A stretch of DNA of 34,266 nucleotides, from positions 1 through 34,266 of the forward strand of contig JAWALV010000001.1 of NCBI GenBank assembly GCA_038886595.1, in the 5' to 3' direction. The notes under the pieces were generated by a model. That model was not told where the DNA came from. It did not search any database and was given only the letters and a program-made list of their open reading frames with translations. Position 1 is the first letter of the stretch. The number at the start of each line of letters is the position of its first letter. The DNA is from Candidatus Pacearchaeota archaeon. GTDB taxonomy: Archaea > Nanobdellota > Nanobdellia > Pacearchaeales > GW2011-AR1. Positions 1 to 30,000 of this stretch are shown one piece after another. Both the position numbers and the translations under genes were made by a program.

Positions 1-93
1 CCACTAAAGAAAAACCATGGCATATTATCTCTATTAAACTTTGTTTTTTAAATTTTTCGTTTTATTTTTCTTTTATTCACCTTTTTTATATTC

Positions 94-124
94 AAACACC
101 TGTTTAAACACCTGTTTAAACACC
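94..124. repeat. Tandem 12-bp unit AAACACCTGTTT x2.6. Each unit is a small palindrome (AAACA-cc-TGTTT). Candidate operator upstream of the 168..452 ORF.
   Basis: Read directly: aaacacctgttt/aaacacctgttt/aaacacc at 94-124, in an intergenic region. Confidence 0.8.
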
Positions 125-167
125 ATAAAAAAGATAATTTTTTAAACACTTTTTATTTTATAATTCT

Positions 168-1708: not shown

Positions 1709-2545
1709 ATGGAAAAAGAGGAATTTTTAAAAAAACTTGAAATTGAACTTAAAATTTCAAAAAATTCAGAACACACAATAAAAAATTATCTTCTAAAAAA
1801 CAAAATCTTTCTTGATTATATTAACAAGCCAATAGAAAAAATAAATTCAGATGATGTAAAGCAGTACCTCGTTGAAAAACTTTCAGACAAGGCGGCAATT
1901 TCAATTATTTCTTTTTTAGCAGCAATAAAATTTTCTTTTTTTACAATATTGAAGAAAGATATCACGGAAGGAATAAAAAGGCCCAAAAGGGAAAAAAAAA
2001 TTCCTTCAGTTTTAACGAAAGAAGAAGTTTCCCGTCTCATTTCTGTAATAAAAAATAAAAAATCTAAACTTATGATTTCTCTTCTCTATGCATGCGGTTT
2101 GAGGGTTTCAGAATTGACTAATTTAAGAGTAAACGATTTAAATTTTGAAGAAAAAATAGGATTTATTCGTCAAGGAAAAGGGAAAAAAGATAGGATCTTT
2201 AATATCCCGAGCTCTCTTTTGGAGGATTTAAAGAATTTAGTTGAAGAAAAGAAAAAAATGAAAGAAAATTATTTATTTTCTATTAATAATAAACCTCTTT
2301 CAGAAAGAAATATTCAAAAAATAGTTAAAAACGCTGCTTTTAAAGCAGGCATTCAAAAAAAAGTACATCCTCACACCTTAAGACATTCTTTTGCAACACA
2401 TCTTTTAGAATCGGGAGTCGATATAAGAAAAATTCAAGAGCTTTTAGGACACACAAATCTTTCAACAACACAAATTTACACTCATGTTTCAAATGAAGAA
2501 TTAAAAAAAATAAAAAGCCCTATAGATAATATCCCTTTTCTTTAG
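1709..2545 (+). CDS. xerA: Tyrosine recombinase XerA (archaeal XerC/D-type)
   Basis: Canonical C-terminal catalytic region: ...LYACGLRVSEL..., HPHTLRHSFATHLLESGVDIRKIQELLGHTNLSTTQIYTH (R-H-R-H/Y signature). N-terminal SAM-like core-binding domain. Length 278 aa. Confidence 0.9.
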   Translation: MEKEEFLKKLEIELKISKNSEHTIKNYLLKNKIFLDYINKPIEKINSDDVKQYLVEKLSDKAAISIISFLAAIKFSFFTILKKDITEGIKRPKREKKIPSVLTKEEVSRLISVIKNKKSKLMISLLYACGLRVSELTNLRVNDLNFEEKIGFIRQGKGKKDRIFNIPSSLLEDLKNLVEEKKKMKENYLFSINNKPLSERNIQKIVKNAAFKAGIQKKVHPHTLRHSFATHLLESGVDIRKIQELLGHTNLSTTQIYTHVSNEELKKIKSPIDNIPFL

Positions 2546-3179: not shown

Positions 3180-3698
3180 ATGGTTTGTGAAAAATGTGGT
3201 TATGTAGAAATTAAAGAAAAAGAAATTTTTGGTAAGAAACTTTGTTCTTTTTGTTATTTTTTCGCCCCAAAGATCGAACAAGATTTTAATAATTATATAG
3301 AAGAAAAAATAGATTGGAAAATTTTAGAAACTTTTAAAAAATACGGTCAAAGCTTGGGAGAATCTCAAAAAAAAGGAATGGAAAGGAAAGCCGAGTTGGG
3401 AAAGGCCATGTCTCGTGCACCTTTTGGATACGTTCTGTCCGAAGGAAATTTAATTGAAAATCAAGATTCTTCAAAGGTCCATTCTATTTTCAAAGAATTT
3501 TTAGAAACAGAAATTTCTTTAAATGCCTTAGCAAAAAAATATTCCCTTTCAGTAAATGGCCTTAAAAAAATTTTAACAAACAGAACATATCTTGGAGAAA
3601 TAAAGTTTGGTGGGAAAATCTTTAAGGGAAATCACAAACCTTTAATATCTCCCGAGATTTTTTATGCTGTGCAAAGGAAGTTAAAGCTTAAAAACTAG
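3180..3698 (+). CDS. Zinc-ribbon protein carrying only the 'Recombinase' domain of large serine recombinases; no resolvase catalytic domain
   Basis: N-terminus has CEKCGY...CSFC. The C-terminal APFGYVLSEGNLIENQDSSKVHSIFKEFLE...SLNALAKKYS...GLKKILTNRTYLGEI...HKPLISPEIFYAVQRKL matches the PFGY...L.N..Y.G...H.piI...f..vq pattern of that domain. Confidence 0.7.
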   Translation: MVCEKCGYVEIKEKEIFGKKLCSFCYFFAPKIEQDFNNYIEEKIDWKILETFKKYGQSLGESQKKGMERKAELGKAMSRAPFGYVLSEGNLIENQDSSKVHSIFKEFLETEISLNALAKKYSLSVNGLKKILTNRTYLGEIKFGGKIFKGNHKPLISPEIFYAVQRKLKLKN

Positions 3699-13080: not shown

Positions 13081-13734
13081 ATGGAAAAAATACCCCTAAG
13101 TCTTAGATTAAAGAGAGAAGCTCATAGAAAGATAGCTTATGTTCAAGATTTAATAGTTAAAGAAGTTTATTCTATTTTTAGCAATGCTGTTTTACACGGG
13201 GGAACTGCTATTTGGAGATGTTACAATGGAAAAAGATTTTCAGAAGATCTTGATTTTTATTTCCTTAAAGATGCAGAAAAAATAGAAAATCTTTTTTCAA
13301 ATCTGAAAAAAATAGGTTTCGACGTAACAAAAAAGAAGATTTCAGAGAAAAGCATTTATTCAGAGCTAATTTTTGAAAGAACCTCTGTTCGTTTAGAAGC
13401 AACATTCCAAAAAGTTAAATCAATTATTTGTGATTACGAGACTATTGATGGAAATATTCTTTCTATTTATAGTTTAACACCTGAAGATTTCATTAAAGAG
13501 AAAATTAAGACTTACTTAAAAAGATTTAAAGTTAGGGATTTGTGGGATATCTTTTTTTTGCTAAAAAATTTAAAAAATCCTAAAGAGATAAAAGAAATCT
13601 CTTTTCTTATTAATAATTTTAAGAAACCACTTGATGAAGAAGAATTAAAAGTTCTTTTACTGGAGGGAATTGTTCCTTCTTCTGAAGAAATGCTTGATTA
13701 CATAAAAAGAAAATGGGAAAACAAATTCATTTAA
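13081..13734 (+). CDS. abiEii: AbiEii-family nucleotidyltransferase (type IV toxin-antitoxin toxin)
   Basis: HGGTAIWRCYNGKRFSEDLDFYF matches the GGTAL...R.SeDlDf motif of AbiEii/DUF1814. C-terminal KVRDLWDIFFL matches the family's R.rDlyDl motif. Confidence 0.8.
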   Translation: MEKIPLSLRLKREAHRKIAYVQDLIVKEVYSIFSNAVLHGGTAIWRCYNGKRFSEDLDFYFLKDAEKIENLFSNLKKIGFDVTKKKISEKSIYSELIFERTSVRLEATFQKVKSIICDYETIDGNILSIYSLTPEDFIKEKIKTYLKRFKVRDLWDIFFLLKNLKNPKEIKEISFLINNFKKPLDEEELKVLLLEGIVPSSEEMLDYIKRKWENKFI

Positions 13735-17346: not shown

Positions 17347-18129
17347 TTAAGTCATTTTTTCAATTAATTCTGCAATAGGTGGTGTAGGTATTGTAGGTAT
17401 TAGAGTTCTATCTATTGCTTCTTTGGCATCTATAGGATTGATTATAGTAGAAAGATTATATCTTTTTTTTAATAGGCAAAGTAGTTCATATTTACTTACA
17501 GAAGTAATTGAAGCTACCTGTTGAATACCCATTAAATTTTTTTCATTCTTAATAATATCAAGAATTAATTCTGCTAAATAATCTGTAGTTACCCCATTCC
17601 ATTTATGGTTTAAAAAACCATTACACTCCTTTTGCTGTAAAAACCATTCGACCAAACTTTTTTTATTAGGACCAATTTCTCTACCTATTATTGAGGTTCT
17701 TATAGTTAGATTTTTTTCATCAATTATTTCTCCAAGTGCTTTTGACATTCCGTACAAATCTTTAGCAGAATAAGATTCATCAACCCTATAATTTCCCTTT
17801 TTTCCATCAAATACACAATCAGTGCTTATTTGTATTACTTTACCTCCGTATTCATTAACCATCTTTTTTAATATATGTGGAAATAAAGCATTTATATATA
17901 TTATTTCTTCCCTTGTTGATTTTTCACAGACAGGTTTTATTAATCCAATACAGTTAATTGCTATCTCCGGTTTTTCTCTTATAACGTAATTTTCAAATTC
18001 TTTTTTTTGTGTGTAAATATTAAAATCACTCTTTAAAACTTTTAATGTTTTCTCTTTAGAAAAATAATCAAAAACTTTATGTCCAAGCATACCCCTGTGC
18101 CCTAATATAAGTATCTTTTGTTTTTTCAT
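17347..18129 (-). CDS. RmlD-like NAD(P)H sugar 4-ketoreductase (dTDP-4-dehydrorhamnose reductase family)
   Basis: ILILGHRGMLGHKV Rossmann motif. QISTDCVFDGKKGNY...YGMSKALGE matches the RmlD iStDyVFdG...YG.sK..GE pattern. Confidence 0.75.
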   Translation of the reverse strand: MKKQKILILGHRGMLGHKVFDYFSKEKTLKVLKSDFNIYTQKKEFENYVIREKPEIAINCIGLIKPVCEKSTREEIIYINALFPHILKKMVNEYGGKVIQISTDCVFDGKKGNYRVDESYSAKDLYGMSKALGEIIDEKNLTIRTSIIGREIGPNKKSLVEWFLQQKECNGFLNHKWNGVTTDYLAELILDIIKNEKNLMGIQQVASITSVSKYELLCLLKKRYNLSTIINPIDAKEAIDRTLIPTIPTPPIAELIEKMT

Positions 18130-18131
18130 TT

Positions 18132-19031
18132 TTATTTTAAATGATTATAATATTTTTCTTCATTAAAATTTATTTTTTCTTCTTTAATTTTTTTTCCGAT
18201 TTCTATTATCCCATCTTCTATTCTTCTCTGAAAAACAAATCCTAAAGAAGTGAGCTTTTTATTAGAAACTGTGTAGTTTCGGTTATCTTCTAAGTTTTGT
18301 GTAATTACTAGTTTAGAATTAAAAATTTCACTTATTTTTTTTGCTACTTCATTTAGACTATAATTTTCATGAGCAACATTATAAACTCCTCTGTATAGGG
18401 GATTTTTGGCAAAGAAAACTATTGCCCGAGCAATATCTTCAACGTGTGTGAAAGGTCTATTTTGTTTACCCCCATAAACTTCTACCGGTAAACCATTTAC
18501 TGCTCTTGCTACAAATTTATTTACTACTAGATCGAATCTCATTCTATTAGACCATCCATATACAGTTCCAAATCTCAATGAAACATTATTTTCTCTTTTG
18601 ATTATTTCATTTTCTCCTAATAGTTTTGTTTGTCCATAAAAGTCTACAGGCATTGTTTTACTATCTTCATTTAAAATTCCTTCTTGATTTCCATAAACAC
18701 TACATGTGCTTCCATATATTACCCTTATTTTATTCTTTTCACATTCTTCTGCAATTTTTTTGGTTAGCTCGTAGTTTACTCTAAAAGCTTCAGAAGGATT
18801 ATTTAGACAAGCTTTTTCTCCCACAATTCCGGCAAGGTGAATTACTGCATCAAAGTTTTTTATTTTGGTTCTTTCTAAAAAATCTCCAAGATCCTGTTCT
18901 ACATATGTAAAAGAAACTTCCTGTTCAAAAATATTTTTATCTACAACAAGGACTTCGTGTTTTTTTTCTTTAAGAAGTAAAACAACTTTTTGTCCTATAT
19001 AACCCAAACCACCAGTTATTAAAAATTTCAC
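18132..19031 (-). CDS. NAD-dependent nucleotide-sugar epimerase/dehydratase (extended SDR)
   Basis: ITGGLGYIGQKV glycine motif, GSTCSVYG, and the YGQTKLLGE catalytic YxxxK. Confidence 0.8.
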   Translation of the reverse strand: MKFLITGGLGYIGQKVVLLLKEKKHEVLVVDKNIFEQEVSFTYVEQDLGDFLERTKIKNFDAVIHLAGIVGEKACLNNPSEAFRVNYELTKKIAEECEKNKIRVIYGSTCSVYGNQEGILNEDSKTMPVDFYGQTKLLGENEIIKRENNVSLRFGTVYGWSNRMRFDLVVNKFVARAVNGLPVEVYGGKQNRPFTHVEDIARAIVFFAKNPLYRGVYNVAHENYSLNEVAKKISEIFNSKLVITQNLEDNRNYTVSNKKLTSLGFVFQRRIEDGIIEIGKKIKEEKINFNEEKYYNHLK

Positions 19032-19462
19032 CTATTTTTTACCTCCCATCCATCAAATTTATTAAAAGGTATCCTAAAATCGTCTTCTTTACTTTCTTCC
19101 ATTGTACTAGAAGAAAAAACTATTAAACCGTTCTCTTCAGTTCTATTTATAAATCCATTAAACCATCCAGGAGGACAAATAATTATCTCTGGGTTCTTTT
19201 CACTCAAAGTAAACTCTATAATCTTCTTGTCTAATTTTTCTTCTTCCCCAATTTTTATAAATTTAAAAGTAAAAACCCCCTTTGTTACAAAAAATAGCTT
19301 CCATTCTTTTTTATGACCATGGTAAGCCCTAATTACTTCTTTTTTTGAATTGCTTATAAAATAAGCTCTCTTAGGGATAAAATAATCTAAGGATATATTT
19401 GTAAAGTCTCCTCTGTCATCAGTGAATCTTTCAATTTTTATTTTTTTAGGTTCATCTAGCAT
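19028..19462 (-). CDS. RmlC/FdtA-like cupin sugar epimerase/isomerase
   Basis: FTDDRGDFTNI...IRAYHGHKKEWKLFFVTKG...PPGWFNGF fits the f.D.RG...RG.H.H...k.....G cupin pattern of nucleotide-sugar 3,5-epimerases and 3,4-ketoisomerases. Translationally coupled to the two SDR genes. Confidence 0.65.
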   Translation of the reverse strand: MLDEPKKIKIERFTDDRGDFTNISLDYFIPKRAYFISNSKKEVIRAYHGHKKEWKLFFVTKGVFTFKFIKIGEEEKLDKKIIEFTLSEKNPEIIICPPGWFNGFINRTEENGLIVFSSSTMEESKEDDFRIPFNKFDGWEVKNR

Positions 19463-19486
19463 AATTTTTTTTATTAATTAGCCTTT

Positions 19487-20410
19487 TTAATCCTTTGGAT
19501 TAAAAAATAATCCTCTAATTAAAAATTGTAAGATGAGTGGCAAATAATAAAATCTTCTAGAATTAATTATTGCCATAAAACTATTTTTTAAAGAACCTAA
19601 AAAAATTCTAATAGCATCTTTTTTATCGTTTTTTTCTTTGCTTTTTATCAAAATTTTGCTAAAATATATAGAATTTCTTAAGTATATCCCTGTTCTCCTA
19701 AGCAATTCTTTATTACTTGTTATAGGAGTATAATTTCTTCTTTTTAAAGAATAATCTTTATGCAGAATTTTACTTTTTCCTACTAAGAAACCTCTTCCTT
19801 TTTTAGAGAGATTATAAGTAAAGATTGTATCATCAGAATAAATAAAGAGGTCTTTTTTTGGAAGGTCTTTTTCTTTTAGAATTCTCATATTTATAAATAA
19901 TCCTGTAAAAACACTCCATTTTATTTCTATTAAAGAATTAGAAAGATATTCTGCCCAAAAAGGGTTTTCCAAACATATCTTTATAGGTAAGTTTCCTCCG
20001 TCTAACCATTTTAAAGAAGAAGATAAATAAGAAATTTTTTCTTTTTTTCTTTTTAAGAATTCTTTTGCTTTTATTAGCTCATCAAACGAATTTTCTAATG
20101 GTTCGCAATCTTCATCAAATAACCACAACCACGCAATCTTTTCTTTTAAGGCTTTCTTTAGTCCTTCTTTATAACCCCCGGCCGAACCGAAGTTTTTTGG
20201 AAGTTCTAAAATAATCACTTTTTTATTTTTTTCATATTTTGAGGATAAAGGATAATTATCTGTACTTTCTCCGTTTATTACTAAGATTATTTTTTTTATT
20301 TTTTTTATTTTTAATAATTTTTTTATACATTCTTCTGCCATTTTTTTTCTATCTTTTGTTAAAACTAAGGCGCCTATCAAATCTTTAGAAATTTTATTAT
20401 TTTTTTCCAT
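19487..20410 (-). CDS. Glycosyltransferase family 2 (GT-A)
   Basis: ALVLTKDRKKMAEECIKKL...LVINGESTDN...FGSAGGYKEGLKKA...LFDEDCEP (DxD-type motif). Confidence 0.75.
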   Translation of the reverse strand: MEKNNKISKDLIGALVLTKDRKKMAEECIKKLLKIKKIKKIILVINGESTDNYPLSSKYEKNKKVIILELPKNFGSAGGYKEGLKKALKEKIAWLWLFDEDCEPLENSFDELIKAKEFLKRKKEKISYLSSSLKWLDGGNLPIKICLENPFWAEYLSNSLIEIKWSVFTGLFINMRILKEKDLPKKDLFIYSDDTIFTYNLSKKGRGFLVGKSKILHKDYSLKRRNYTPITSNKELLRRTGIYLRNSIYFSKILIKSKEKNDKKDAIRIFLGSLKNSFMAIINSRRFYYLPLILQFLIRGLFFNPKD

Positions 20411-21288
20411 TTTTTTACTTTAAAAAAAGTAAAATATACTCTTAAATACCCCTCACTCTTAATTATTCTATTATTATCAAATAAAGGAAAATCCATTTCA
20501 AATCTTTTTAAACTCTTCTCTTTTTCTATATAATTTGTAGTGTGTGTTCCTTTTTTAAAACCAATATTTGTTATTAGATTTTTTTTAGGGATAATACAGA
20601 GAGCATTATTTATTAAACAACAGAATATCCATTGATAATCCCAAGTGTCTATTTTTTTAGCATAAGTTAATTGGTAAAGCCTCCAAGACTTGATTTTATC
20701 TAGGAAACTGTAATCTTTAACGATTTCTAAAAAATTTTTAGAAAACCTTATTTTTTTCCATTCTTTCATTTCAACATCATAATTTTTCCAAGCTCTTCTC
20801 CATGTAGCCCATCCCCAAGCGTTAAAGCAAGGTGTAAAAAAATAATCTTCTTTTATTTTAGAAATTCTTTCTATATTGGTGCCACTAATTTGCATTACTC
20901 TTTCATCATCTTTATATCTTTCTAATAACTCTTGGCAAAATCTAAAAAAACTCTGAGAAGGCAAGCAGTCGTCTTCTAAAATTATTCCCCGTTCTTCATT
21001 TTCAAAGAACCAGGTTATTGCACTAGAAACAGCATATTTGCAACCTAAATTCTTGTCTCTAAGTAGAGTTTTTACTTTACAAGGCCAATCAATATTCTCT
21101 AACACATACTTTCTGACAGCATCTGTTTTCTTTTTTTCTTCCTCGTTTCTTGGCCCATCTGCTGCTATATAAAGTTTTGTCGGTCTTGCTTTTCTAATTT
21201 CAGCAAAAACTTTTTTTGTAGTTTCTATTCTATTAAAAATTAGGAAAAGGACAGGAGTTGTTAGTTTAAATTTTCTGGTGTTTTTCAT
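20377..21288 (-). CDS. GT-A fold glycosyltransferase (GNT-I/HlpA-like family)
   Basis: LIFNRIETTKKVFAEIRKARPTKLYIAADGPR...NLGCKYAVSSAITWFFENEERGIILEDDCLPSQSFFRFCQELLERY is the typical signature of this GT2-like clade. Confidence 0.7.
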   Translation of the reverse strand: MKNTRKFKLTTPVLFLIFNRIETTKKVFAEIRKARPTKLYIAADGPRNEEEKKKTDAVRKYVLENIDWPCKVKTLLRDKNLGCKYAVSSAITWFFENEERGIILEDDCLPSQSFFRFCQELLERYKDDERVMQISGTNIERISKIKEDYFFTPCFNAWGWATWRRAWKNYDVEMKEWKKIRFSKNFLEIVKDYSFLDKIKSWRLYQLTYAKKIDTWDYQWIFCCLINNALCIIPKKNLITNIGFKKGTHTTNYIEKEKSLKRFEMDFPLFDNNRIIKSEGYLRVYFTFFKVKKWKKIIKFLKI

Positions 21289-21437
21289 TTTTTCACTATC
21301 TATAATTAGCTATTTAGTACTTTTTCTTTTTTACCAATAACACCTTCCTTAGATTTTATTATAATTCTAGGAATCCTCCCCAATATTTTTTTCATTTTTT
21401 AATTCTATTCGCGCCATCATTATTTTTTATTTATTCT

Positions 21438-22586
21438 TCATTTTCTTAAAATCTTCTTATAGGTTTTAACTAAATTTTCTCCATATTTTTCCCATGTAAA
21501 ATTTTCCACCCTCTTCCTTGCAGCCCACCCCATTTTTTTTGCTGCTTTTGGATTTTTATAGAAATAAAGGATTTTTTCTTTTAAAGCTTTTACATTTCTA
21601 ATTGGCACTATAAAACCTTCTTTCCCATCTCTTGCAATGCTTCCAGAATTAAAAGTAGTTATTAATGGTAAACCTGAAGCCATTGCTTCATAATTTACTA
21701 GTGCAGAGCCCTCTTCTAAAGAAGGAAAAACAAAAACATCAGAAATTTTATAGTATTCCCTAGGATCTGCAAAACCTATCAATTTTATTGTTTTATTATT
21801 TTTGTAACTCTCTACGACTTTTTCAGCATCAGGCCAAACTCTTCCAACAATTATAAGTTCGGCATTTTTTAGATTTAATTCTTCCCATGCTTGAAGTAAA
21901 TATTGAATCCCTTTTCTTAATTGAATACTTCCAACAAAAATTGCTCGAAATATGTTGTCTTTTTTTTCTTTTTTCGGAGAAAATTTGGTTAAATCTACTC
22001 CAAAACTAATTTTTATTACTTTTTCTTTTGGAAATCCTTTTTCAATAAAGCTCTTTTCTGCAAAATCCGAAGGGACCAAAACATAATCAGCAAAATTTAA
22101 TTCATCTAGAGCTTTTTTAATTTGATTTTTAGAAAAAATCTTCTCTTTTATACAATATTTCCTATATTCTTCTTCAAGAATCTCTTTTTGTGTTAAGGGA
22201 TGGGAAGACGCATTTTCTACAACAACTATTGCTCCAAGTCTTTTAGCTTTGTTAGCAGCGGAGAGACCATGATTTCTCCAATAGTGAAATATATCAATTC
22301 TTTTTATGTAAATTTTACTTAATTGATCATAAAAAGGATCTAGAATAGCATAAGGATTAAAAGAACGAAAGAAATACTTTTGAACTCCTTTTAAGGGATA
22401 CCATACTAAATATTTTAGTGGCCAAAAACTTTTTATTTTTTTTTTGGGTATTTCTGTTTTTTTATAATCCAAGCAGATTACTTTATCTAAGACGTCTTTT
22501 TTATAAATACCAGAAACGGCCTTGTAAGCCGTATTTCCTATCCCAACCCCCCCAAAGATAGACCCAACAGAGTAAATAATCTTCAT
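21438..22586 (-). CDS. Glycosyltransferase family 4 (GT-B)
   Basis: FVFPSLEEGSALVNYEAMASGLPLITTFNSGS...KEGFIVP. Confidence 0.85.
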   Translation of the reverse strand: MKIIYSVGSIFGGVGIGNTAYKAVSGIYKKDVLDKVICLDYKKTEIPKKKIKSFWPLKYLVWYPLKGVQKYFFRSFNPYAILDPFYDQLSKIYIKRIDIFHYWRNHGLSAANKAKRLGAIVVVENASSHPLTQKEILEEEYRKYCIKEKIFSKNQIKKALDELNFADYVLVPSDFAEKSFIEKGFPKEKVIKISFGVDLTKFSPKKEKKDNIFRAIFVGSIQLRKGIQYLLQAWEELNLKNAELIIVGRVWPDAEKVVESYKNNKTIKLIGFADPREYYKISDVFVFPSLEEGSALVNYEAMASGLPLITTFNSGSIARDGKEGFIVPIRNVKALKEKILYFYKNPKAAKKMGWAARKRVENFTWEKYGENLVKTYKKILRK

Positions 22587-23497
22587 AGTTTTTTCTTTAA
22601 TTTTATTTTAAAATATATCTCACCTATTTTTGAGGCGATAGCTAAAGCTATTGTTAAATAACAGAATTTTATAAAATCAATAAAACAAACTTTTTCTTTT
22701 AGAAAGATTTTTTTTGTTTTTTTTAAATTTTTCCATTGTTCAAAAATTCTTGAGAATTTATAAGGGGTCTTTAGATTCCTATTGATTCCTTTGTGAATTA
22801 TAGCGCCAGACATTCTCTTAAATTTTAGTTTAATAACTGAAATAAAATTTTCTGATCTAAGATGTTCTCCTTTTATAGAAGGATCTTTTATTACAATATA
22901 GTCTTTTTTTAAAATTCTTTGAGTTAAGTCTATATCTTCTCCCGCAGCGAAAGGAAAATTTTCATTAAAACCTTTCACTTCTTTTAAAACTTTTCTTCTA
23001 TAACTACACAGAGCTGTTGAAAGACCTTTTTCTTTTTCTTCTTTTTCTAATTTAGTCACTCCCATATATTCATCTAAATATCTAGCTATATAATATAGGT
23101 CTGGCCAACTTAATTTTATAGGCAATACATTTCCCCCAACACCAACAACATTTTGATTTTTATACCATTCTAAACTCTTTTTAACGATGTCTTTATTTAT
23201 TAAAACATCATCATCTACAAAAAAGATAATTTCTCCTTTAGAATTTTTTATTCCTTTGTTTCTTGCTTTTGCAGGGCCGCTATTTTCTTGTTTAATATAT
23301 TTTATATTTTTTCTTTTTTTTAAAAGGTTTCTTATTACTTCTTCTGTTCTGTCTGTTGACCCATCATCGACTATGATTATTTCATAATTTTTTTTTGGAT
23401 AATCCACCTTCATAATATTACTCAAGCATTTTCTTAAATTTTCTTTTCTATTATATGTAGGTACAACAAAAGAAAAAAAAGGTAGCTCTTTTTCCAT
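22583..23497 (-). CDS. Glycosyltransferase family 2 (GT-A)
   Basis: FSFVVPTYNRKENLRKCL...IIIVDDGSTDRTEE...GPAKARNKGI...IFFVDDD. Confidence 0.88.
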   Translation of the reverse strand: MEKELPFFSFVVPTYNRKENLRKCLSNIMKVDYPKKNYEIIIVDDGSTDRTEEVIRNLLKKRKNIKYIKQENSGPAKARNKGIKNSKGEIIFFVDDDVLINKDIVKKSLEWYKNQNVVGVGGNVLPIKLSWPDLYYIARYLDEYMGVTKLEKEEKEKGLSTALCSYRRKVLKEVKGFNENFPFAAGEDIDLTQRILKKDYIVIKDPSIKGEHLRSENFISVIKLKFKRMSGAIIHKGINRNLKTPYKFSRIFEQWKNLKKTKKIFLKEKVCFIDFIKFCYLTIALAIASKIGEIYFKIKLKKKL

Positions 23498-23568
23498 TTT
23501 TTATCTAATTAAATGCGATTTTTAAATATTTAGTTAAATTTTTAATCCTCTTTTTTTATTTTACTTTT

Positions 23569-24663
23569 ATGGAAAATATAAAAGTTTACCTTCAATACCC
23601 TTGGAAATTTTCTGATAGTTCTTATTATAAAAACATCCTAGAATTTCCACCTCAAAAAGTGACTTTTGTTAATTTTAAGAGGGGTTTTGTAAAAGTTATA
23701 GGTTCTTCAAAAAAATTTGAATTTTACAGAGTGTTTAAAAATATTATAAGAAAAATTTTAAGTATAGTCAGTATACCTAACATCACTTATACTTTTAATA
23801 AAGATTGCGATTTAATTCATTGTGCTCATTGTTTATCTTTAAACAAAAAACCATGGGTGTTAGATACCGAAGTTTATGATAGAATTGCAGCAACAGGAAA
23901 AATTGCCTATTCTAGGCTAGGAAAATTTATTATAAAAAAACTATTAGAAAGTTCTTATTGTAAAAAAATTATTTGTTGGTCAGAAGATTGTAAGAAAACA
24001 TTCGAAAAAGCTTTTCATAATAACGAAAAAATATTAAATAAGATTGAAGTATTACATTTTGCTCTTCAAAAATTTAAGTTTAAGAAAATCCCTCATAAAA
24101 ATGTAAAGATTCTTTTCGTTGCTAGATGGTTTGACGCTAAGGGAGGAAGACAAACCCTGGAAGTTTTTAAAAGATTATCAGAAAAATTTAGGAAAGCAGA
24201 ATTTATTTTTATTTGTCCTACACCTAAAGAATTTAAAGAAAAATATAAGAATTCTCGAATAAAAATTTTAGATATGGTTCACCAAGAGAAACTTTTTGAA
24301 GAAATTTATCCTTATTCAGATATCTTTTTTTATCCCGGTTTTGGAGATTCTTATGGTTTTGCAGTTCCCGAAGCAATGATGTTTGGTTTACCCATCATAA
24401 CAACTGATACTTTTGCTAAAAGAGAACTTGTTACAAACGGTATTTCAGGTTTTTTAATAGAATTGCCAAAAAATTGGAAAGGTTATGAGGATATGAATGA
24501 AGAACTTCTTCAGAATTTAGAAGAAAAAACTGCCTTACTAATAGAAAACGAAAAATTAAGAAAGGAAATGAGCAAAAATGCAAGAAAAGAAGCTGAAAAA
24601 AAATTTTCTATTGAGAAAAGAAATAAGCTACTAAAAAAAATTTACTTAGAAGCAATTTCATAA
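23569..24663 (+). CDS. Glycosyltransferase family 4 (GT-B)
   Basis: FFYPGFGDSYGFAVPEAMMFGLPIITTDTFAKRELVTNGISGFLI. Confidence 0.8.
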   Translation: MENIKVYLQYPWKFSDSSYYKNILEFPPQKVTFVNFKRGFVKVIGSSKKFEFYRVFKNIIRKILSIVSIPNITYTFNKDCDLIHCAHCLSLNKKPWVLDTEVYDRIAATGKIAYSRLGKFIIKKLLESSYCKKIICWSEDCKKTFEKAFHNNEKILNKIEVLHFALQKFKFKKIPHKNVKILFVARWFDAKGGRQTLEVFKRLSEKFRKAEFIFICPTPKEFKEKYKNSRIKILDMVHQEKLFEEIYPYSDIFFYPGFGDSYGFAVPEAMMFGLPIITTDTFAKRELVTNGISGFLIELPKNWKGYEDMNEELLQNLEEKTALLIENEKLRKEMSKNARKEAEKKFSIEKRNKLLKKIYLEAIS

Positions 24664-25531
24664 TCTACCCTTGTCCACTCCTTTGGATTTTTATCAGCAT
24701 TCTTATCTAAATTATTTGGAAGATAATGTGTGAAGTATTTTGGGCATATGATTATTTTATTCTTATTTTTGTTTAAATAGGCGGCCCACCAACTAAGTAA
24801 ACTGTTTGCTAAGATATTATGTTTGCAATTTTTCATTAGCTCAAGATCTTCGTAGGCTTCATTTCCTTCAATAAAAAAAGCTTCTTCAATAAATCTTAAA
24901 TTTTTTTTACACCAATTTATATCGTCAGAGAAAATATAAAATTTTGGTTTTTTTATTTTATTTTTTATTATATTAACCGATTTGATATAGTACTCCAAAG
25001 GAAGAATATGCCCTCTTAAAACTAAAAGATCACCTCTTCTAACATGTATTGATACCGAGTTTGTTCTTTTAATTTTTTTTAATGTTAACTTTATTTTTCT
25101 TTTATATTCTTCTTTTAGTTCAATTTCTTTTATAAGTTCCTCTTTTATAATTTTGAAGTACTCTTCTCTAAAATATCCTCTTAGATAAAAGTCGCTTGAT
25201 TTTATTCTATACAACTCTTCAGCAGATTTAAAATCTTTTCCTTCTTCATATACTTTTTTTTCAAAGAGATGATACTTTCTTAAAATTTTATTTATTATTC
25301 TGTTATTAGTTTTAAAGAGGTATCTTTTTATTTCTTCTTTATTTGCTATAGGCGGGTCTATCATAAGCTTATCTAATTCATATTTTCTTGGAGAATCTTT
25401 TCTTTTTGCCAATTTTCATAAAAAGTGTTATCAATTTTGAAGGAGGCATTTTTTATTTTTGCGAGGGCCCTTGTAGCTGCGTAAATATTTAATTGATTTC
25501 CCAACCCACCACCACATTCAGCTATTATCAT
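24642..25531 (-). pseudogene. futC: GT11 alpha-1,2-fucosyltransferase split by a 1-nt frame change in an A-rich tract (pseudogene, phase-variable gene or recoding)
   Basis: The ATG at 25531 opens a 52-codon frame, MIIAECGGGLGNQLNIYAATRALAKIKNASFKIDNTFYENWQKEK..., carrying the GT11 N-terminal GGLGNQ motif; it stops at 25373. The rest of the protein is in the -1 frame from about 25412: HVRRGDLL, YIFSDDINWCKKNL, ANSLLSWWAAYLN. The junction sequence is ttggcaaaaagaaaag. Confidence 0.85.
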
Positions 25532-26039
25532 TTTTTATAACTTTTAAATAAAATTTTATTTCCATAGCAGGAAGAATGTAAGCAAAAAACCTGCAATAGA
25601 TATCCCTATTTAAGTTAGCAAGAGGATAAAATAAAAAATTTATAATCTTTCCAAATTTTCCTTCTCCAAAGCATATCTTAGAAGAAATATCAAATCTTCC
25701 TTCTTTGTTAAAATAGTCTAATGTTAAGTGATTAAATTTATAGACCTTAATAAAGACTGGCCATTTAAAGATAATTCTGTTGATGAAATATATGCAGAAA
25801 TGGTTTTAGAACACTTAAACGATATAAAACATTTTTTTAATGAGGTTTATAGAGTTTGTAAAAATAATGCTAGAATTACAATAAGAGTTCCTTTTTTTTC
25901 ATCTTACCATAATTATAGTGATCCGACCCATAAACATAACTTTGTCCGGATTGCATGAAGGATCTATATCGCAATTTATAAATCCTTTTAATTTTTTTGT
26001 TCCACATCCTAGATTAAGTTTCAATCCTTTTTTTTCCAT
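25518..26039 (-). pseudogene. Class I SAM-dependent methyltransferase (Methyltransf_11-like) interrupted by inversion of its central ~216 bp
   Basis: Minus strand 26039->25944 encodes MEKKGLKLNLGCGTKKLKGFINCDIDPSCNPD (SAM motif I). Plus strand 25728->25943 encodes VIKFIDLNKDWPFKDNSVDEIYAEMVLEHLND...RVCKNNARITIRVPFFSSYHNYSDPTHKHNF (motifs II-III and post-III). Minus strand 25727->25518 encodes LTLDYFNKEG...AYILPAMEIKFYLKVIKNDNS*. Joined in that order they form a colinear 173-aa methyltransferase. Confidence 0.85.
25728..25943 (+). other. Inverted internal segment of the methyltransferase gene. The track ORF 25728..25958 is this fragment read from a GTG.
   Basis: See the pseudogene entry. Boundaries are inferred from reading-frame continuity and are uncertain by a few nt. 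No inverted repeat longer than about 6 bp was seen at the junctions. Confidence 0.75.
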
Positions 26040-26042
26040 CTT

Positions 26043-28793
26043 TCACTCAAAAAATTTATCCATACCCCCAAATCCGTTTTTAACAAAATATTCATAATCT
26101 AAAAATTCTTTATAGACTGGCGTATCTTCAGGATATTCAACTTTCCAAATTTTTAATGGAGCTCTTAAACCTTGGAACCAAACAAATTCATTTAAAGAGG
26201 GATAAAACTGTTTGAAATAAGCAACAGCAGGATCATCTTCAAAATGGGCTTTTTTTATTGTCGGATATTCATTATAAGGATCATTTAAAATGTAAAGTCT
26301 TCCCATTAAGCTATTAAATGTTCTTGGAGATAGATAAATTATCGCGCCGCTATCAACTATTTTTCCTTGTCTTTCGTCTATTAAGGGAATAAAATAAATC
26401 AAAGAATCAATTCCTTTATCAAAAGAGAATATTTTTCCGTCTTTGTAAATGTGTTTTACAGGAATTCTATATTGTTTGTTGTTATAAAAGAAAACTGCTG
26501 TTGGCTGTTTTATAGAACTGAAATTTCCTAAATTTTCAATCTCAACAATAACTCCGGCAACATAAGCATTGCAAACCATCTGCTGTGTTCTTGTCACAGA
26601 AATTCCAGGAATGAAAACTCTAGAGCCATTATCAGTTTCAAATGAAATATCGCCGTCAACACAACTTCCCAATTGATAAAATCTTATTTCTCCATTTGAT
26701 GTTTCTTGAGTTTGTCGTTCATCAATTGGTCCGCCGAAAATTCCTGCCGAAACTCTATCCCAAGAATCATTGCTTCCTATTTTAGAAAAAGCACCATATT
26801 TTCCCATTTCTGTCGGATCAATCAATAAATAAGAAACATTCCAAGTTTTCATATAACTTAAAGCTGTTTTTGGGTTTGGTGTAGTTAATAGATACCTACC
26901 ATTATAATGATCCGTATGGTCTCCACCAGAGTGTCCACCATCAGTTACAGTCGGCCTATTTGCCAAGGTTTGTATAAAATAACCATAATCCCACCAATGC
27001 GTGAAAATATCTTTTTCATTTGTATTATTTCTTACCCATGCCATAGCATTTTGCCATTGAATATTTGCAGAAGGTCCAATTCTAGATGCCTGAATTTTTG
27101 AAATTTCATACATTCCAAAGCTTAAATTTCCTTGGGCAAAAGGAACTCCAAAAACATAAACATAAGATAAAACGATAAGTATTGAAACAACACTAAAATA
27201 AATATATTTTGTTTCTTTATCTTCTTTTTTCTTTATTCTTTTTATAAACTCATAAATTCCATCAGCAGCAATTAAGCAAATAAAAGGAGTTATCAAAAAA
27301 AAGCTTCTTACAGCTGCTCTTGCATTCATAGCAACTGTAACAGCAATAGCAAATAAAATTATTTCATCTATTGAAATTTTGAATTTTTCTTTTGAAACAA
27401 CATAAAATAAAGAAATTAAAAAAACAATCACGCCAACAGCATAAAGTGCCTGACTTATAAAGTTTTCACCATTGAATAGACTATTGTCAGAAATTCTTGA
27501 AAAAAGAATTCCAAAAAGCAAAAGCATACTGGCGCCAGATAAAGCCATCTTATTTTTTATACTTTTAGAGTTTAAAGTCAAATTTAAGCAGATAAAAATT
27601 AAACCAACTAAAAACAAGAAGAATAAGATCTGTCCTTTTTGATTTATTAAATCTGTTAAGTAAGGTTGTGCGTTTTCAGCAACAGTTGTCCCAAGTCTTC
27701 CTGTAAACTCGCCAAAAAAAGGATAAATCAAAGTTGACCAAGCTCTTCTAAACATCTTTATAGGATTTTTTCCTATTGCTACTAGACAAATAATCCCAAG
27801 TACAGCACTAATTCCTAGAGAATAAAAATGAAAATAATTTTCTTTAATTTTAAAGAATTTTATTTTTTCTTTGTACTTAAAAAGAAGAAAATCAACAAAA
27901 GAAAAAACAAAAACAAATAAGACTAAAATTCCTTGTGCGTCTAAAAATCTAGAATACATAAATTCTGCTTTGCTTCCTAAAAGAGGCGTAAAAATAACTG
28001 AAAAAACAATCCAAATAAAATAAAACAAAAAGAAATTTTCTTTTTTCTCACTATTAAATAAGTAATACAATAGCATTGTTAAAGGAAAAAAAACAAAAAC
28101 AAAAGTTATTGCCCCTCCCCAAGAAACTAAAACCAAGGCAGTTAAAAAGCCAACCAAAACTCCGTATAAAACAGAATTTTTCCAGCTTTTTTCATAATAT
28201 CTCAGAGAAAAATAGAGCCCAATTATTAAGGCAAAAATCGCAAATACTCCTATATGGTCATGATCATAAAAACCAGCAATACTTCTAAATAAAAAACTAG
28301 GAGCAAAAGCCAAGAATGCGCTGCCAATTAAGCTGGCAACTTTTGATTTTGTTAATAAATAGCAAAGAAGGAAAAACAAAATTAAACCAATTCCGAAAAA
28401 TATGGGCGCAGAAATTGTCGCAGCATAGTCAAAAGTTATTTCAGGATCAAAAATTTTTAATATTTTATAGTTCCAAATTAAATAATCATCAATTAACTCA
28501 GGAATCCATTCAATTTTGTAACCAGGGCTTCTCAATTCATCAAATTCTGGCAAATAGCCAAGTTTTAATCTTGTTTCAGCTATTCTATAAAAATATAAAG
28601 AGTCCAAATCATTAGAAGTATATTTTCCAGTTGTTTGGTCTTTCAGAATTGGAACATTAGATAATCTTATTGAAACAGAACTGTAAAGAATAATCAAAAA
28701 AATCAGGATGGTTATTGTCCATCGAAATTTTTCATTCTTTACAAGATTTTTCAAAAAATCTTTTATTTTTTCGCTTTCTTTTTTCTTAACCAT
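26043..28793 (-). CDS. aglB: Archaeal oligosaccharyltransferase AglB (STT3 family)
   Basis: 916 aa. About 13 N-terminal TM helices, a DLD motif in the first loop, the hallmark WWDYGY motif (HWWDYGYFIQTLANRPTVTDGG), and a large soluble C-terminal domain. Confidence 0.95.
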   Translation of the reverse strand: MVKKKESEKIKDFLKNLVKNEKFRWTITILIFLIILYSSVSIRLSNVPILKDQTTGKYTSNDLDSLYFYRIAETRLKLGYLPEFDELRSPGYKIEWIPELIDDYLIWNYKILKIFDPEITFDYAATISAPIFFGIGLILFFLLCYLLTKSKVASLIGSAFLAFAPSFLFRSIAGFYDHDHIGVFAIFALIIGLYFSLRYYEKSWKNSVLYGVLVGFLTALVLVSWGGAITFVFVFFPLTMLLYYLFNSEKKENFFLFYFIWIVFSVIFTPLLGSKAEFMYSRFLDAQGILVLFVFVFSFVDFLLFKYKEKIKFFKIKENYFHFYSLGISAVLGIICLVAIGKNPIKMFRRAWSTLIYPFFGEFTGRLGTTVAENAQPYLTDLINQKGQILFFLFLVGLIFICLNLTLNSKSIKNKMALSGASMLLLFGILFSRISDNSLFNGENFISQALYAVGVIVFLISLFYVVSKEKFKISIDEIILFAIAVTVAMNARAAVRSFFLITPFICLIAADGIYEFIKRIKKKEDKETKYIYFSVVSILIVLSYVYVFGVPFAQGNLSFGMYEISKIQASRIGPSANIQWQNAMAWVRNNTNEKDIFTHWWDYGYFIQTLANRPTVTDGGHSGGDHTDHYNGRYLLTTPNPKTALSYMKTWNVSYLLIDPTEMGKYGAFSKIGSNDSWDRVSAGIFGGPIDERQTQETSNGEIRFYQLGSCVDGDISFETDNGSRVFIPGISVTRTQQMVCNAYVAGVIVEIENLGNFSSIKQPTAVFFYNNKQYRIPVKHIYKDGKIFSFDKGIDSLIYFIPLIDERQGKIVDSGAIIYLSPRTFNSLMGRLYILNDPYNEYPTIKKAHFEDDPAVAYFKQFYPSLNEFVWFQGLRAPLKIWKVEYPEDTPVYKEFLDYEYFVKNGFGGMDKFFE

Positions 28794-28830
28794 TTTTTTT
28801 ATAATTTAAGAGGATTTAAAAACTTACTTA

Positions 28831-29829
28831 TTAAAACATCCCTTTAAACGACAAAAAAGCAATTCCAATAAAGATTAACTCAATAAAAAATATTAATAAA
28901 ACAACATCTTTCTCATAAACTTTTTTCTTAAACTTAGAAAGGAACCAAATTCCAAAATGAGTTAAGCCATAGATTTTTTCATATTTTAAAGAAAGAGAAC
29001 CATCTTTATTCGGTTTGCCGAAAGATTGAATTTCAAGTTTTCCTCTTAATTTTAAGAACATTTCAATAATGAAAGGAATAAAAACTATAAAAGCTATTTT
29101 TTCAAAATTTCCGATAATAGCCATTGTTACAATTAAGCTTCCAATAGAATAGGTTAAAACATTTCCCCCAAAAACTTTTGCAGGACACCAATTAAATATT
29201 AAAAAAGCAAGCAATGAAAAAACCATTATTATCCCTACAATAGCAAGCCAAGAATTTCCGCTAGTATAAGCTACATAACTTAGAAAGCTCAATATTAAAA
29301 CACCTAAACCGGCCTCTAAGCCATTAAAACCTGCCAAAAAATTATATACACTTGTTACACCAACAACTCCAAGAGGAATTAAAAAAAGAGGATAAAATAT
29401 TCCAAAATTAACATTTCCAAATAAAGGCAAGCTTATTATTTTTTCTCCAGCATTTATTACCATCAGAGGTATTGCCGCAATTAATAAAGCAAACACCCTT
29501 GCTCTTTTAGAGAGTCCTTTCTTTTTCCAACCAAGCATATCATCTATAAAACCAATAAATCCTGCTAAAACAACTGTCATTAGAGAAGCGAAAATTAAAG
29601 TATTTTCTTCAACCCCCCAGAAAGTTCTTAAAGCAACATAGAAGAAAACACCTATTAAAAAAGAAAACAAGACTATTAATCCACCAGAAGAAGCAACATC
29701 TTTAGGCATTTTCCATTTATTCATATCTTCCCAAAGCATTCCCATATATTGGCATTTTCTTATCCAAATTTTCAAGAAAATAAAGCAAGCTAAAAAACTT
29801 ATTAATAATGTAAAAATTATTGTACTCAT
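28831..29829 (-). CDS. aglH: UDP-GlcNAc:dolichyl-phosphate GlcNAc-1-phosphate transferase-like (MraY/WecA/AglH family)
   Basis: Polytopic membrane protein with FIGFIDDMLG and NFLAGFNGLEAG motifs typical of polyprenyl-phosphate HexNAc-1-P transferases. Adjacent to aglB. Confidence 0.85.
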   Translation of the reverse strand: MSTIIFTLLISFLACFIFLKIWIRKCQYMGMLWEDMNKWKMPKDVASSGGLIVLFSFLIGVFFYVALRTFWGVEENTLIFASLMTVVLAGFIGFIDDMLGWKKKGLSKRARVFALLIAAIPLMVINAGEKIISLPLFGNVNFGIFYPLFLIPLGVVGVTSVYNFLAGFNGLEAGLGVLILSFLSYVAYTSGNSWLAIVGIIMVFSLLAFLIFNWCPAKVFGGNVLTYSIGSLIVTMAIIGNFEKIAFIVFIPFIIEMFLKLRGKLEIQSFGKPNKDGSLSLKYEKIYGLTHFGIWFLSKFKKKVYEKDVVLLIFFIELIFIGIAFLSFKGMF

Positions 29830-29868
29830 AAAGATATGTGTTTTTTTCTATTTAAAAAATATTTGTTT

Positions 29869-30000
29869 CTAAGATTCTTTTAAAATATCTTCAATTTTTT
29901 CTTCCTCATATATTGTTTTTTTACCGCAATAATTACATTTATCAGGAAGTTTATCTTTTTTTGTTTTATAACCACAATTAGAGCATCTATATGTTTTCAT
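29869..30000 (-). CDS. 43-aa zinc-ribbon protein (below the ORF track size cutoff)
   Basis: Reverse-strand translation: MKTYRCSNCGYKTKKDKLPDKCNYCGKKTIYEEEKIEDILKES*. It has two CxxC pairs, an ATG start, and fills the gap upstream of aglH. Confidence 0.45.
   Translation of the reverse strand: MKTYRCSNCGYKTKKDKLPDKCNYCGKKTIYEEEKIEDILKES

What the first reader, a model, noticed from the sequence alone, without database searches (positions are those of the whole stretch)
25518..26039. Inverted internal segment in the methyltransferase gene directly downstream of aglB
The gene that starts 3 nt after the aglB stop encodes SAM motif I on the minus strand (LNLGCG..., 26039-25944). Its motif II/III core is encoded on the plus strand (25728-25943: DLNKDWPFKDNSVDEIYAEMVLEHL...DPTHKHNF). 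Its C-terminal tail is back on the minus strand (25727-25518: LTLDYFNKEG...), and the stop overlaps the ATG of the GT11 gene. Flipping the about 216-bp core gives an uninterrupted, colinear 173-aa class I methyltransferase with no other lesions. So the current state is a clean inversion, not random decay.

I found no inverted repeats longer than about 6 bp at the junctions, so the mechanism is unclear. Candidates are a site-specific invertase with short sites, an illegitimate event, or a population mixture collapsed by the assembler. Together with the slippage-type break in the next gene, it suggests ON/OFF switching of terminal N-glycan decoration. Such switching would help evade glycan-targeting viruses or hosts and is, to my knowledge, undescribed for archaeal agl operons.
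Basis: partly seen in the sequence, partly recalled or inferred. Interest (0 to 1): 0.78.

Follow-up and report, generated by a model that had tools for sequence, protein, structure and literature searches.

The report
Methyltransferase gene broken by clean inversion
In a tiny uncultured archaeon (Pacearchaeota), the sugar-coat methyltransferase gene next to aglB has been switched off by a precise flip of about 200 bp between two 8-bp inverted repeats; the flip is real, but it looks like a recent accidental mutation, not a proven on/off switch.

Summary
The gene 3 nt downstream of aglB is a 173-aa class I SAM methyltransferase. Its middle lies on the opposite strand. The flipped block is 25742-25935, bounded by an imperfect 8-bp inverted repeat (AAATTTAT 25734-25741 / ATAACTTT 25936-25943), not 25728-25943. 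Flipping it back gives a protein that aligns without gaps to intact 166-191-aa homologues. More than 30 related DPANN loci carry the gene colinear, often in the same aglH-aglB-methyltransferase order.

The window is a complete NCBI Pacearchaeota MAG contig. An independent Logan assembly of run SRR27730019 crosses both junctions in the same inverted state, so this is not an assembler artefact. In the sibling run SRR27730018 a contig stops exactly at the inner edge of the left repeat. That hints at structural heterogeneity there, but I could not recover the other orientation.

No invertase lies nearby; the only complete recombinase is XerA, 23 kb away. The repeat is shorter than known invertase sites, and the next gene (GT11) carries an independent frameshift.

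Best reading: a recent microhomology-mediated inversion created a null allele in a hypervariable N-glycan decoration module. A programmed switch remains possible (about 15%).

The parts
25944..26039 (-). Methyltransferase 5' piece: Met1-Asp32, with SAM motif I (LNLGCG) and the acidic residue D24
   Evidence: Translation. G11, C12, G13 and D24 are invariant in the alignment with homologues.
25936..25943 (.). Right arm of the imperfect 8-bp inverted repeat, ATAACTTT (reverse complement AAAGTTAT)
   Evidence: Chance of a repeat this good at random breakpoints: 0.014.
25742..25935 (+). Inverted core of the methyltransferase (motifs post-I to III, ...DLNKDWPFKDNSVDEIYAEMVLEHL...DPTHK), now readable only on the plus strand; 194 bp between the repeat arms
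   Evidence: (Methyltransf_11, E 6.8e-9).
25734..25741 (.). Left arm of the inverted repeat, AAATTTAT. Logan contig SRR27730018_27177 ends at its last base, 25741
25518..25733 (-). Methyltransferase 3' piece: NHLTLDYFNKEG...VIKNDNS plus the TGA stop.
25899..26039 (-). Truncated 46-aa product of the inverted state. It reads into the flipped block and stops after 12 further codons
   Evidence: The same ORF is called on Logan contig SRR27730019_60702.
25728..25958 (+). Spurious 76-aa plus-strand ORF created by the inversion. It lacks motif I
   Evidence: It is present in the protein collection only from Logan.
26043..28793 (-). aglB (STT3 oligosaccharyltransferase, 916 aa), 100% identical to NCBI MEM4605443.1, Candidatus Pacearchaeota
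28831..29829 (-). Glycos_transf_4 (AglH-like sugar-1-phosphate transferase), upstream in the same operon
   Evidence: PF00953. Synteny.
24642..25531 (-). GT11 (fucosyltransferase family) gene split by a -1 frameshift at CAAAAAG (25402-25408). It overlaps the methyltransferase 3' end by 14 nt
   Evidence: The same frameshift allele is in SRR27730018_27177.

Best explanation
**What it is.** This is a real and recent inversion inside a gene. The gene is the small class I SAM-dependent methyltransferase that Woesearchaeota- and Pacearchaeota-type archaea keep directly downstream of aglH-aglB. It presumably methylates a sugar of the N-glycan.

**What it does.** In this population about 194-210 bp in the middle of the gene has been turned around between two 8-bp imperfect inverted repeats. 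Translation from the normal start now stops after 46 residues. The catalytic core is on the wrong strand, so the allele is null.

**How it most likely arose (inferred).** A single non-programmed event at the short inverted microhomology (TTAT/ATAA within AAATTTAT/ATAACTTT). This would be replication template switching or illegitimate recombination, not a dedicated invertase.

**Context.** It lies in a strain-variable glycan-decoration module where loss-of-function alleles are tolerated or favoured. The adjacent GT11 gene is independently frameshifted. The allele is young, because there is no further decay. It may still be segregating against the intact orientation in the source community.
For: **The gene and its ancestral form.**
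- The three pieces are on alternating strands, and the core is a Methyltransf_11 match.
- The flipped-back protein aligns without gaps to intact homologues.
- More than 30 related loci carry the gene colinear on one strand. Many have the order aglH-aglB-methyltransferase (L008, L009, L014; L014 is followed by GT11). The colinear form is therefore ancestral and the inversion is lineage-specific.

**The inversion is real DNA.** Logan contig SRR27730019_60702 (window 25632-26780) crosses both junctions in the same state.

**Mechanism.**
- The junction microhomology is 8 bp with 7 of 8 matches, chance 0.014.
- Microhomologies of 5-9 bp are typical of spontaneous microhomology-mediated rearrangements (PMC4417113).
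- There is no longer inverted repeat.
- No invertase is nearby. The contig holds only an XerA equivalog at 1709-2545 and a serine-recombinase fragment at 3180-3698.

**The event is recent.** The three pieces are equally conserved (58-62% identity to P0001) and have no stops.

**The module is dispensable.**
- The next gene has its own frameshift, shared by two runs.
- In the closest genome (AglB 91% identical over the C-terminal third compared) everything after the aglB stop is replaced by other glycan genes.
Against: - A contig from sibling run SRR27730018 ends at 25741, the last base of the left repeat. In the one other case I could test, a Logan contig ended one base before a strain variant (contig end 25081, SNP at 25082). 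This suggests two structures coexist at exactly this junction, which a programmed switch would also predict.
- The lesion-free state and the exact reversibility also fit a switch.
- fim-type switches work with 9-bp repeats (own knowledge), so a short repeat alone does not exclude a recombinase.
- I had no reads, so orientation frequencies are unknown.
Confidence: 0.62

Rival explanations
1. Programmed, reversible intragenic inverton. A site-specific recombinase flips the 194-bp block between the 8-bp repeats, turning the N-glycan methyltransferase on and off (phase variation of terminal glycan decoration in a DPANN archaeon).
For: - The inversion is precise, lesion-free and exactly reversible.
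- The inverted repeat at both junctions is better than chance, p about 0.014.
- The SRR27730018 contig ends exactly at the inner edge of the left repeat. Neither the OFF-specific ORFs nor an intact gene were recovered from that run.
- The target is a surface-glycan decoration gene in a hypervariable island.
- Intragenic invertons of the 'premature stop' type exist, including one in an archaeon (PMC10028968).
Against: - The repeat is only 8 bp with one mismatch. The validated thiC intragenic inverton has an 11-nt repeat.
- There is no invertase gene within 23 kb. The only complete recombinase scores as the housekeeping XerA equivalog.
- No second copy of a longer shared site was found in the 34-kb contig.
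- None of more than 30 relatives shows an inverted form.
- The other orientation was never observed directly.
- The neighbouring gene is broken by an ordinary frameshift, which fits decay of the whole module.
Confidence: 0.15
2. Artefact. The inversion was created by the assembler, or by chimeric library or amplification products, and the organism carries an intact gene.
For: - The sequence comes from a metagenome-assembled genome.
- The MAG and the Logan contigs may derive from the same reads.
- Amplification chimeras are often inverted with short microhomology (own knowledge).
Against: - Two different assemblies give identical junctions.
- A de Bruijn assembler cannot invert 200 bp across an 8-bp repeat (own knowledge).
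- Both junctions are exact and reciprocal, with no base lost, which random chimeras would not produce.
- No intact version of the gene is called in any assembly on record.
Confidence: 0.06
3. Fixed dead gene with no orientation polymorphism. The SRR27730018 contig end at 25741 is an unrelated SNP, indel or coverage break, and the whole population carries the inverted pseudogene.
For: - In SRR27730019 a single contig runs through both junctions without a break.
- The other orientation was never seen.
- Position 25742 is a third codon position in the plus-strand frame, so a silent SNP there is possible.
Against: - The break falls exactly at the repeat edge, on a contig 11,106 bp long. My rough estimate is that chance would give this about 1 time in 1000.
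- No strain SNP is seen anywhere else in 25195-25741.
- A single SNP bubble is normally collapsed by the contig step (own knowledge of Logan/Minia).
Confidence: 0.15

Closest known systems
Intragenic invertons of the 'premature stop' class (Chanin, West et al., 'Intragenic DNA inversions expand bacterial coding capacity', PMC10028968)
   Same: - A segment of tens to hundreds of bp lying wholly inside a coding sequence is inverted.
- The inverted state truncates the protein.
- Flipping back restores it exactly.
- One archaeal example is reported (Salarchaeum sp. JOR-1, adenylosuccinate synthase).
   Different: - Those were found from recognisable inverted repeats (einverted; 11 nt in thiC) and from reads in both orientations, and are assumed to be invertase-driven.
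- Here the repeat is 8 bp with a mismatch.
- No invertase is linked.
- The second orientation is only inferred from a contig end.
Spontaneous microhomology- or short-inverted-repeat-mediated inversions (replication template switching, 'U-turn-like' rearrangements; PMC4417113)
   Same: - Junctions carry short, often imperfect inverted microhomology of 5-9 bp.
- The range is short (under 1 kb).
- No dedicated enzyme or site is involved.
   Different: - Those were described in organelles and model bacteria as rare somatic events, many with single junctions.
- Here both reciprocal junctions are present, and the allele has risen to dominance in an environmental archaeal population.
fimS-type promoter switches (9-bp inverted repeats, 314-bp element, FimB/FimE tyrosine recombinases) - from my own knowledge
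   Same: - The invertible segment is similar in size and the terminal inverted repeats are very short.
- It controls a surface structure.
   Different: - fimS is intergenic and carries a promoter.
- Its repeats are perfect.
- Its recombinase genes are adjacent.
- None of these holds here.
AglP of Haloferax volcanii, the SAM-dependent methyltransferase of the N-glycosylation pathway (own knowledge: Magidovich et al. 2010)
   Same: A class I SAM methyltransferase encoded in the gene cluster with aglB, likely acting on a sugar of the N-glycan.
   Different: Only generic Methyltransf_11 similarity was shown. Orthology, substrate and activity were not tested.
Slippage-controlled glycan genes of bacteria, e.g. 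Helicobacter pylori futC (GT11) - own knowledge
   Same: A GT11 gene and a neighbouring decoration gene are off at the same time, and the GT11 break sits in an A-rich run (CAAAAAG).
   Different: The run is only A5, and the same allele is seen in both runs. No length variation was observed.

Membership tests
Class I SAM-dependent methyltransferase (Pfam Methyltransf_11) | Profile match above the curated cutoff | tested here: met
   PF08241 scores 35.2-36.7 bits against a cutoff of 21.2. The match covers only profile positions 53-93.
Class I SAM-dependent methyltransferase (Pfam Methyltransf_11) | Glycine-rich motif I and an acidic residue after strand 2, in the normal order before the core | tested here: met
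   LNLGCG and D24 are invariant across homologues. The order is normal only after flipping the block.
Conserved agl-cluster methyltransferase of Woesearchaeota/Pacearchaeota | End-to-end colinearity with the 166-191-aa family and a position downstream of aglB | tested here: met
   95-98% query coverage with no junction gaps. aglH-aglB-methyltransferase synteny is seen in L005, L008, L009, L014, L055 and others.
Intragenic inverton (programmed) | Inversion lies entirely within one coding sequence | tested here: met
   The block 25742-25935 lies inside the gene 25518-26039.
Intragenic inverton (programmed) | Flanking inverted repeats long enough to be a recombinase site (about 11 nt or more in validated cases) | tested here: not met
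   The repeat is only 8 bp with 7 of 8 matches, and similarity does not extend beyond it.
Intragenic inverton (programmed) | Both orientations present in reads of one population | tested here: inconclusive
   No reads were available. One run's contig spans both junctions inverted. The other run's contig ends exactly at the repeat edge. The flipped-back gene is not in the collection.
Intragenic inverton (programmed) | An invertase is encoded in the genome, usually nearby | tested here: inconclusive
   None lies within 23 kb. The contig has an XerA equivalog and a serine-recombinase fragment. The rest of the genome was not available.
Spontaneous microhomology-mediated inversion | Short inverted microhomology at both breakpoints, no bases lost or gained, state confined to one lineage | tested here: met
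   Microhomology (p = 0.014). Exact restoration. All relatives are colinear.
Simple-sequence (slippage) phase-variable gene, for the neighbouring GT11 | Long homopolymer or repeat tract (about 7-8 nt or more, own knowledge) with length variation between samples | tested here: not met
   The tract is A5 (25403-25407), and the allele is identical in the window and in SRR27730018_27177.
AglP-type N-glycan methyltransferase | Methylation of an N-glycan sugar; orthology to AglP | not testable with these tools
   Only linkage to aglB and the generic fold family were shown.

The most novel reading that the evidence does not exclude
The block is a working intragenic inverton in a DPANN archaeon. A recombinase acting on very short (8-bp) sites reversibly flips the core of an N-glycan methyltransferase, so that cells in one population differ in terminal glycan methylation. 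This could be a defence against glycan-binding viruses, or a way to modulate attachment to a host cell. The contig that stops exactly at the repeat edge in run SRR27730018 would be the footprint of the mixed population.
Probability: 0.15. Interest if true: 0.72.

Novelty: new member of a known kind. Interest (0 to 1): 0.36.

Why it matters
**If it is a one-off mutation.** It is a tidy natural example of how surface-glycan decoration genes are lost in streamlined DPANN archaea. It also shows that a gene annotators would skip is a fully reconstructible, recently inactivated member of a conserved aglH-aglB-methyltransferase module. That is useful for annotation, but not surprising.

**If both orientations coexist and interconvert.** It would be, to my knowledge, the first inversion-based phase variation of archaeal N-glycosylation and the first invertible element reported in DPANN archaea. 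It would use unusually short sites.

**How to settle it.** The two public runs can answer this with a simple read count.

Tried and rejected
**Searches for the same organism or a close relative.**
- Species-representative genomes: the source is not among them. Every relative's gene is colinear.
- JGI metagenomes, searched with AglB: the closest AglB is 70% identical (L034). The four closest AglB relatives (L034, L035, L046, L047) lack a recognisable methyltransferase downstream.
- Closest genome, GCA_038885615.1 (AglB 91% identical over the C-terminal third compared): the whole module downstream of aglB is replaced, so there is no orthologue to compare.

**Searches for the other orientation.**
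- Exact look-up of four possible flipped-back proteins: none is in the collection. Partial products are not indexed there, because a known 73-aa partial product was also absent. That negative therefore applies only to full-length genes.
- Attempts to fetch the block contig or right-flank contig of SRR27730018 failed.

**Other checks.**
- A chimeric query (AglB tail + methyltransferase + GT11) was meant to pull in near-identical Logan fragments. It returned only cluster representatives.
- A scan for longer inverted repeats at the junctions and across the contig found only AT-rich noise.
- A literature search for the run and assembly accessions found nothing.
- Assembly artefact was rejected because two assemblies agree and an 8-bp repeat cannot mislead a k-mer assembler.
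- I considered XerA as the invertase and set it aside. It scores as the housekeeping equivalog and lies 23 kb away.

Full report
**What is in the sequence**

On the minus strand, 3 nt after the aglB stop (aglB is 26043-28793), an ORF starts at 26039 and reads MEKKGLKLNLGCGTKKLKGFINCDIDPSCNPD. It then runs into nonsense and stops after 46 residues. The plus strand at 25728-25943 reads ...KFIDLNKDWPFKDNSVDEIYAEMVLEHL...DPTHKHNF. This is the only part that matches Pfam Methyltransf_11 (E 6.8e-9, 36.7 bits, cutoff 21.2). The minus strand at 25727-25518 reads LTLDYFNKEG...VIKNDNS*.

**Corrected boundaries**

It had two extra residues (VI) at the first junction and two missing residues (NH) at the second. 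GTGATT at 25728-25733 is the reverse complement of AAT CAC, which encodes Asn-His. These six bases therefore belong to the minus-strand tail.

With the block set to 25734-25943, the rebuilt 173-aa protein aligns to P0001-P0005 with no gap at either junction: NPDKFIDLN against NPDKIVDLE, and THKHNFNHLTLDYFN against THKRGFNHRTLDFYN.

The ends of the block form an imperfect inverted repeat. The left arm is AAATTTAT (25734-25741) and the right arm is ATAACTTT (25936-25943), with 7 of 8 positions complementary. The exchange point cannot be placed more exactly than within these 8 bp, and the unique inverted core is 25742-25935 (194 bp). In 20,000 random placements of a 210-bp block in this 27% GC window, a repeat this good within 10 nt of the breakpoints occurred 1.4% of the time. 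Similarity does not extend beyond the 8 bp, and no longer inverted repeat brackets the block.

**The gene is a conserved member of the agl cluster**

The rebuilt protein finds 34 homologues. Most are 155-231 aa, and coverage reaches 98%, with P0001 at 58% identity.

A scan of species-representative genomes returned 33 loci, almost all Woesearchaeota, Pacearchaeota or Nanoarchaeota MAGs. In these loci and in the JGI metagenome loci, every full-length copy of the gene is colinear on one strand; the few opposite-strand matches elsewhere in a locus are separate weak partial hits, not flipped pieces of the gene. It often follows aglH-aglB directly. In L008 and L009 aglB ends about 50-60 nt before it. 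L014 has aglH-aglB-methyltransferase-GT11, the same order as the window. The colinear form is therefore ancestral, and the inversion is specific to this lineage.

The three pieces are equally similar to the nearest homologue (62%, 60% and 58%) and carry no stops or frameshifts. The event is therefore recent.

**Where the window comes from, and whether the inversion is real DNA**

AglB is 100% identical to NCBI MEM4605443.1, from a 34,266-bp contig of a Candidatus Pacearchaeota MAG. The window is that whole contig.

Logan assemblies of two sibling runs contain the same population.

In SRR27730019:
- Contig _27009 equals window 17569-25081.
- Contig _182579 equals window 27091-29991.
- Contig _60702 (1149 bp) equals window 25632-26780 with one mismatch. 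It crosses both junctions in the inverted state and carries the same 46-aa and 76-aa ORFs.

A second assembler thus reproduces both junctions. An 8-bp repeat cannot mislead a k-mer assembler (own knowledge). I therefore rate an artefact at about 6%.

**A hint of heterogeneity**

In SRR27730018, contig _27177 (11,106 bp) matches window 19373-25741. It has 23 SNPs, all within 24366-25194, and the same GT11 frameshift. It ends at 25741, the last base of the left repeat arm.

In the one case I could test, a Logan contig stops one base before a point where co-occurring variants diverge: _27009 ends at 25081, and the first of a run of strain SNPs is at 25082. A mixture of the two orientations, with the exchange point on the inner side of the mismatch, predicts a shared left contig ending exactly at 25741.

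That exchange point also gives the more consensus-like residue in the rebuilt protein: NPDKVIDL, as in P0007.

Neither the 46-aa ORF, the 76-aa ORF nor an intact gene is on record from that run. This fits breaks at both junctions. It fits missing coverage equally well.

I could not retrieve the block contig or the right-flank contig. The evidence is indirect. It also cannot separate two strains that differ by one old event from ongoing flipping.

**Against a programmed switch**

- The 34-kb contig encodes no invertase near the locus.
- The tyrosine recombinase at 1709-2545 passes the XerA equivalog model (255.9 bits, cutoff 220). The 172-aa ORF at 3180-3698 is only a serine-recombinase fragment.
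- The repeat is shorter and less perfect than in characterised systems. The validated thiC intragenic inverton has an 11-nt repeat (PMC10028968).
- The next gene, GT11, overlaps the methyltransferase by 14 nt. It is independently broken by a -1 frameshift at CAAAAAG (25402-25408). This is an A5 run, and the allele is the same in both data sets.
- Two different lesions in adjacent decoration genes fit a module that has become dispensable. Once one step is lost, the other is neutral.
- In the closest genome (GCA_038885615.1, AglB 91% identical over the C-terminal third compared), everything from 3 nt after the aglB stop is replaced by unrelated glycan genes. This region therefore turns over quickly by ordinary gain and loss.

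**Most likely mechanism**

The parts shown are as follows. The block is inverted. The inverted state truncates the protein at 46 aa and separates motif I from the core. The event is lineage-specific and recent. The junctions share an 8-bp imperfect inverted repeat.

The mechanism is inferred. It was most likely a single replication template switch, or an illegitimate recombination, at the inverted microhomology. Microhomology-mediated rearrangements of this kind, typically using 5-9 bp of often imperfect homology, are documented in organelle genomes (PMC4417113). I give this about 0.62.

The rivals are:
- A programmed reversible inverton (0.15).
- A fixed dead gene, with the contig end being a coincidence (0.15). 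This agrees with the best explanation on mechanism and differs only on polymorphism.
- An artefact (0.06).

**Comparison with known systems**

In outcome it resembles the 'premature stop' intragenic invertons of Chanin et al., who also report one archaeal case. It fails their repeat criterion, and the orientation-mixture and invertase tests are inconclusive, so I do not file it as a member.

It meets all the features I could test for a spontaneous microhomology-mediated inversion.

The gene itself is a generic Methyltransf_11 enzyme. No closer named family or solved structure matched. Its role in N-glycan methylation, by analogy with AglP, rests on linkage to aglB alone.

**Verdict**

The inversion reading is right. 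The ON/OFF switch reading is unproven and less likely than a one-off loss-of-function mutation. A read count in two named public runs would settle it.

Noticed in passing
window 25402-25408 (within GT11, 24642-25531, minus strand): The GT11 break is a -1 shift at TGG CAA AAA GAA. One more A, or a -1 slip of tRNA-Lys on A-AAA-AG, would give WQKRKDSPRKYELDKL. That sequence is colinear with the intact GT11 of L014. The same allele is present in Logan contig SRR27730018_27177, so it is not a one-off sequencing error.
   Followed up: partly
window 24366-25194: The window and SRR27730018_27177 differ by 23 SNPs, all packed into this 830-bp stretch (3' ends of the GT4 and GT11 genes). There are none in 19373-24365 or 25195-25741. 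This looks like a recombination tract imported from a diverged strain.
   Followed up: no
L069 11755-20751 (GCA_038885615.1) versus window 17347-26039: The closest genome shares primase-like/SpoIIM/aglH/aglB synteny. From 3 nt after the aglB stop it carries a completely different set of glycan genes (EamA, GT2, PMT_2, Methyltransf_24, GT92, GLF and others). The aglB stop is a sharp boundary of a replaceable glycan island.
   Followed up: partly
window 1709-2545 (+) and 3180-3698 (+): There is an XerA equivalog (NF040815, 255.9 bits) and, 635 bp downstream, a 172-aa ORF with only the 'Recombinase' domain of large serine recombinases. The second is probably a remnant of an integrated element.
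   Followed up: partly
window 13081-13734 (+): An AbiEii-type nucleotidyltransferase toxin gene sits inside the polysaccharide and glycosyltransferase gene cluster. It is followed by a 197-aa ORF with no family match.
   Followed up: no
window 25081/25082, 25631/25632, 26780/26781, 27090/27091: Logan contigs of SRR27730019 break at these four points within 2 kb around the locus. The first coincides with a known strain SNP. The others suggest further strain variation inside GT11 and aglB that I could not see.
   Followed up: no
window 82-129: Near the contig start there are tandem copies of TGTTTAAACACC, reported as an overlapping inverted or direct repeat. Their function is unknown.
   Followed up: no
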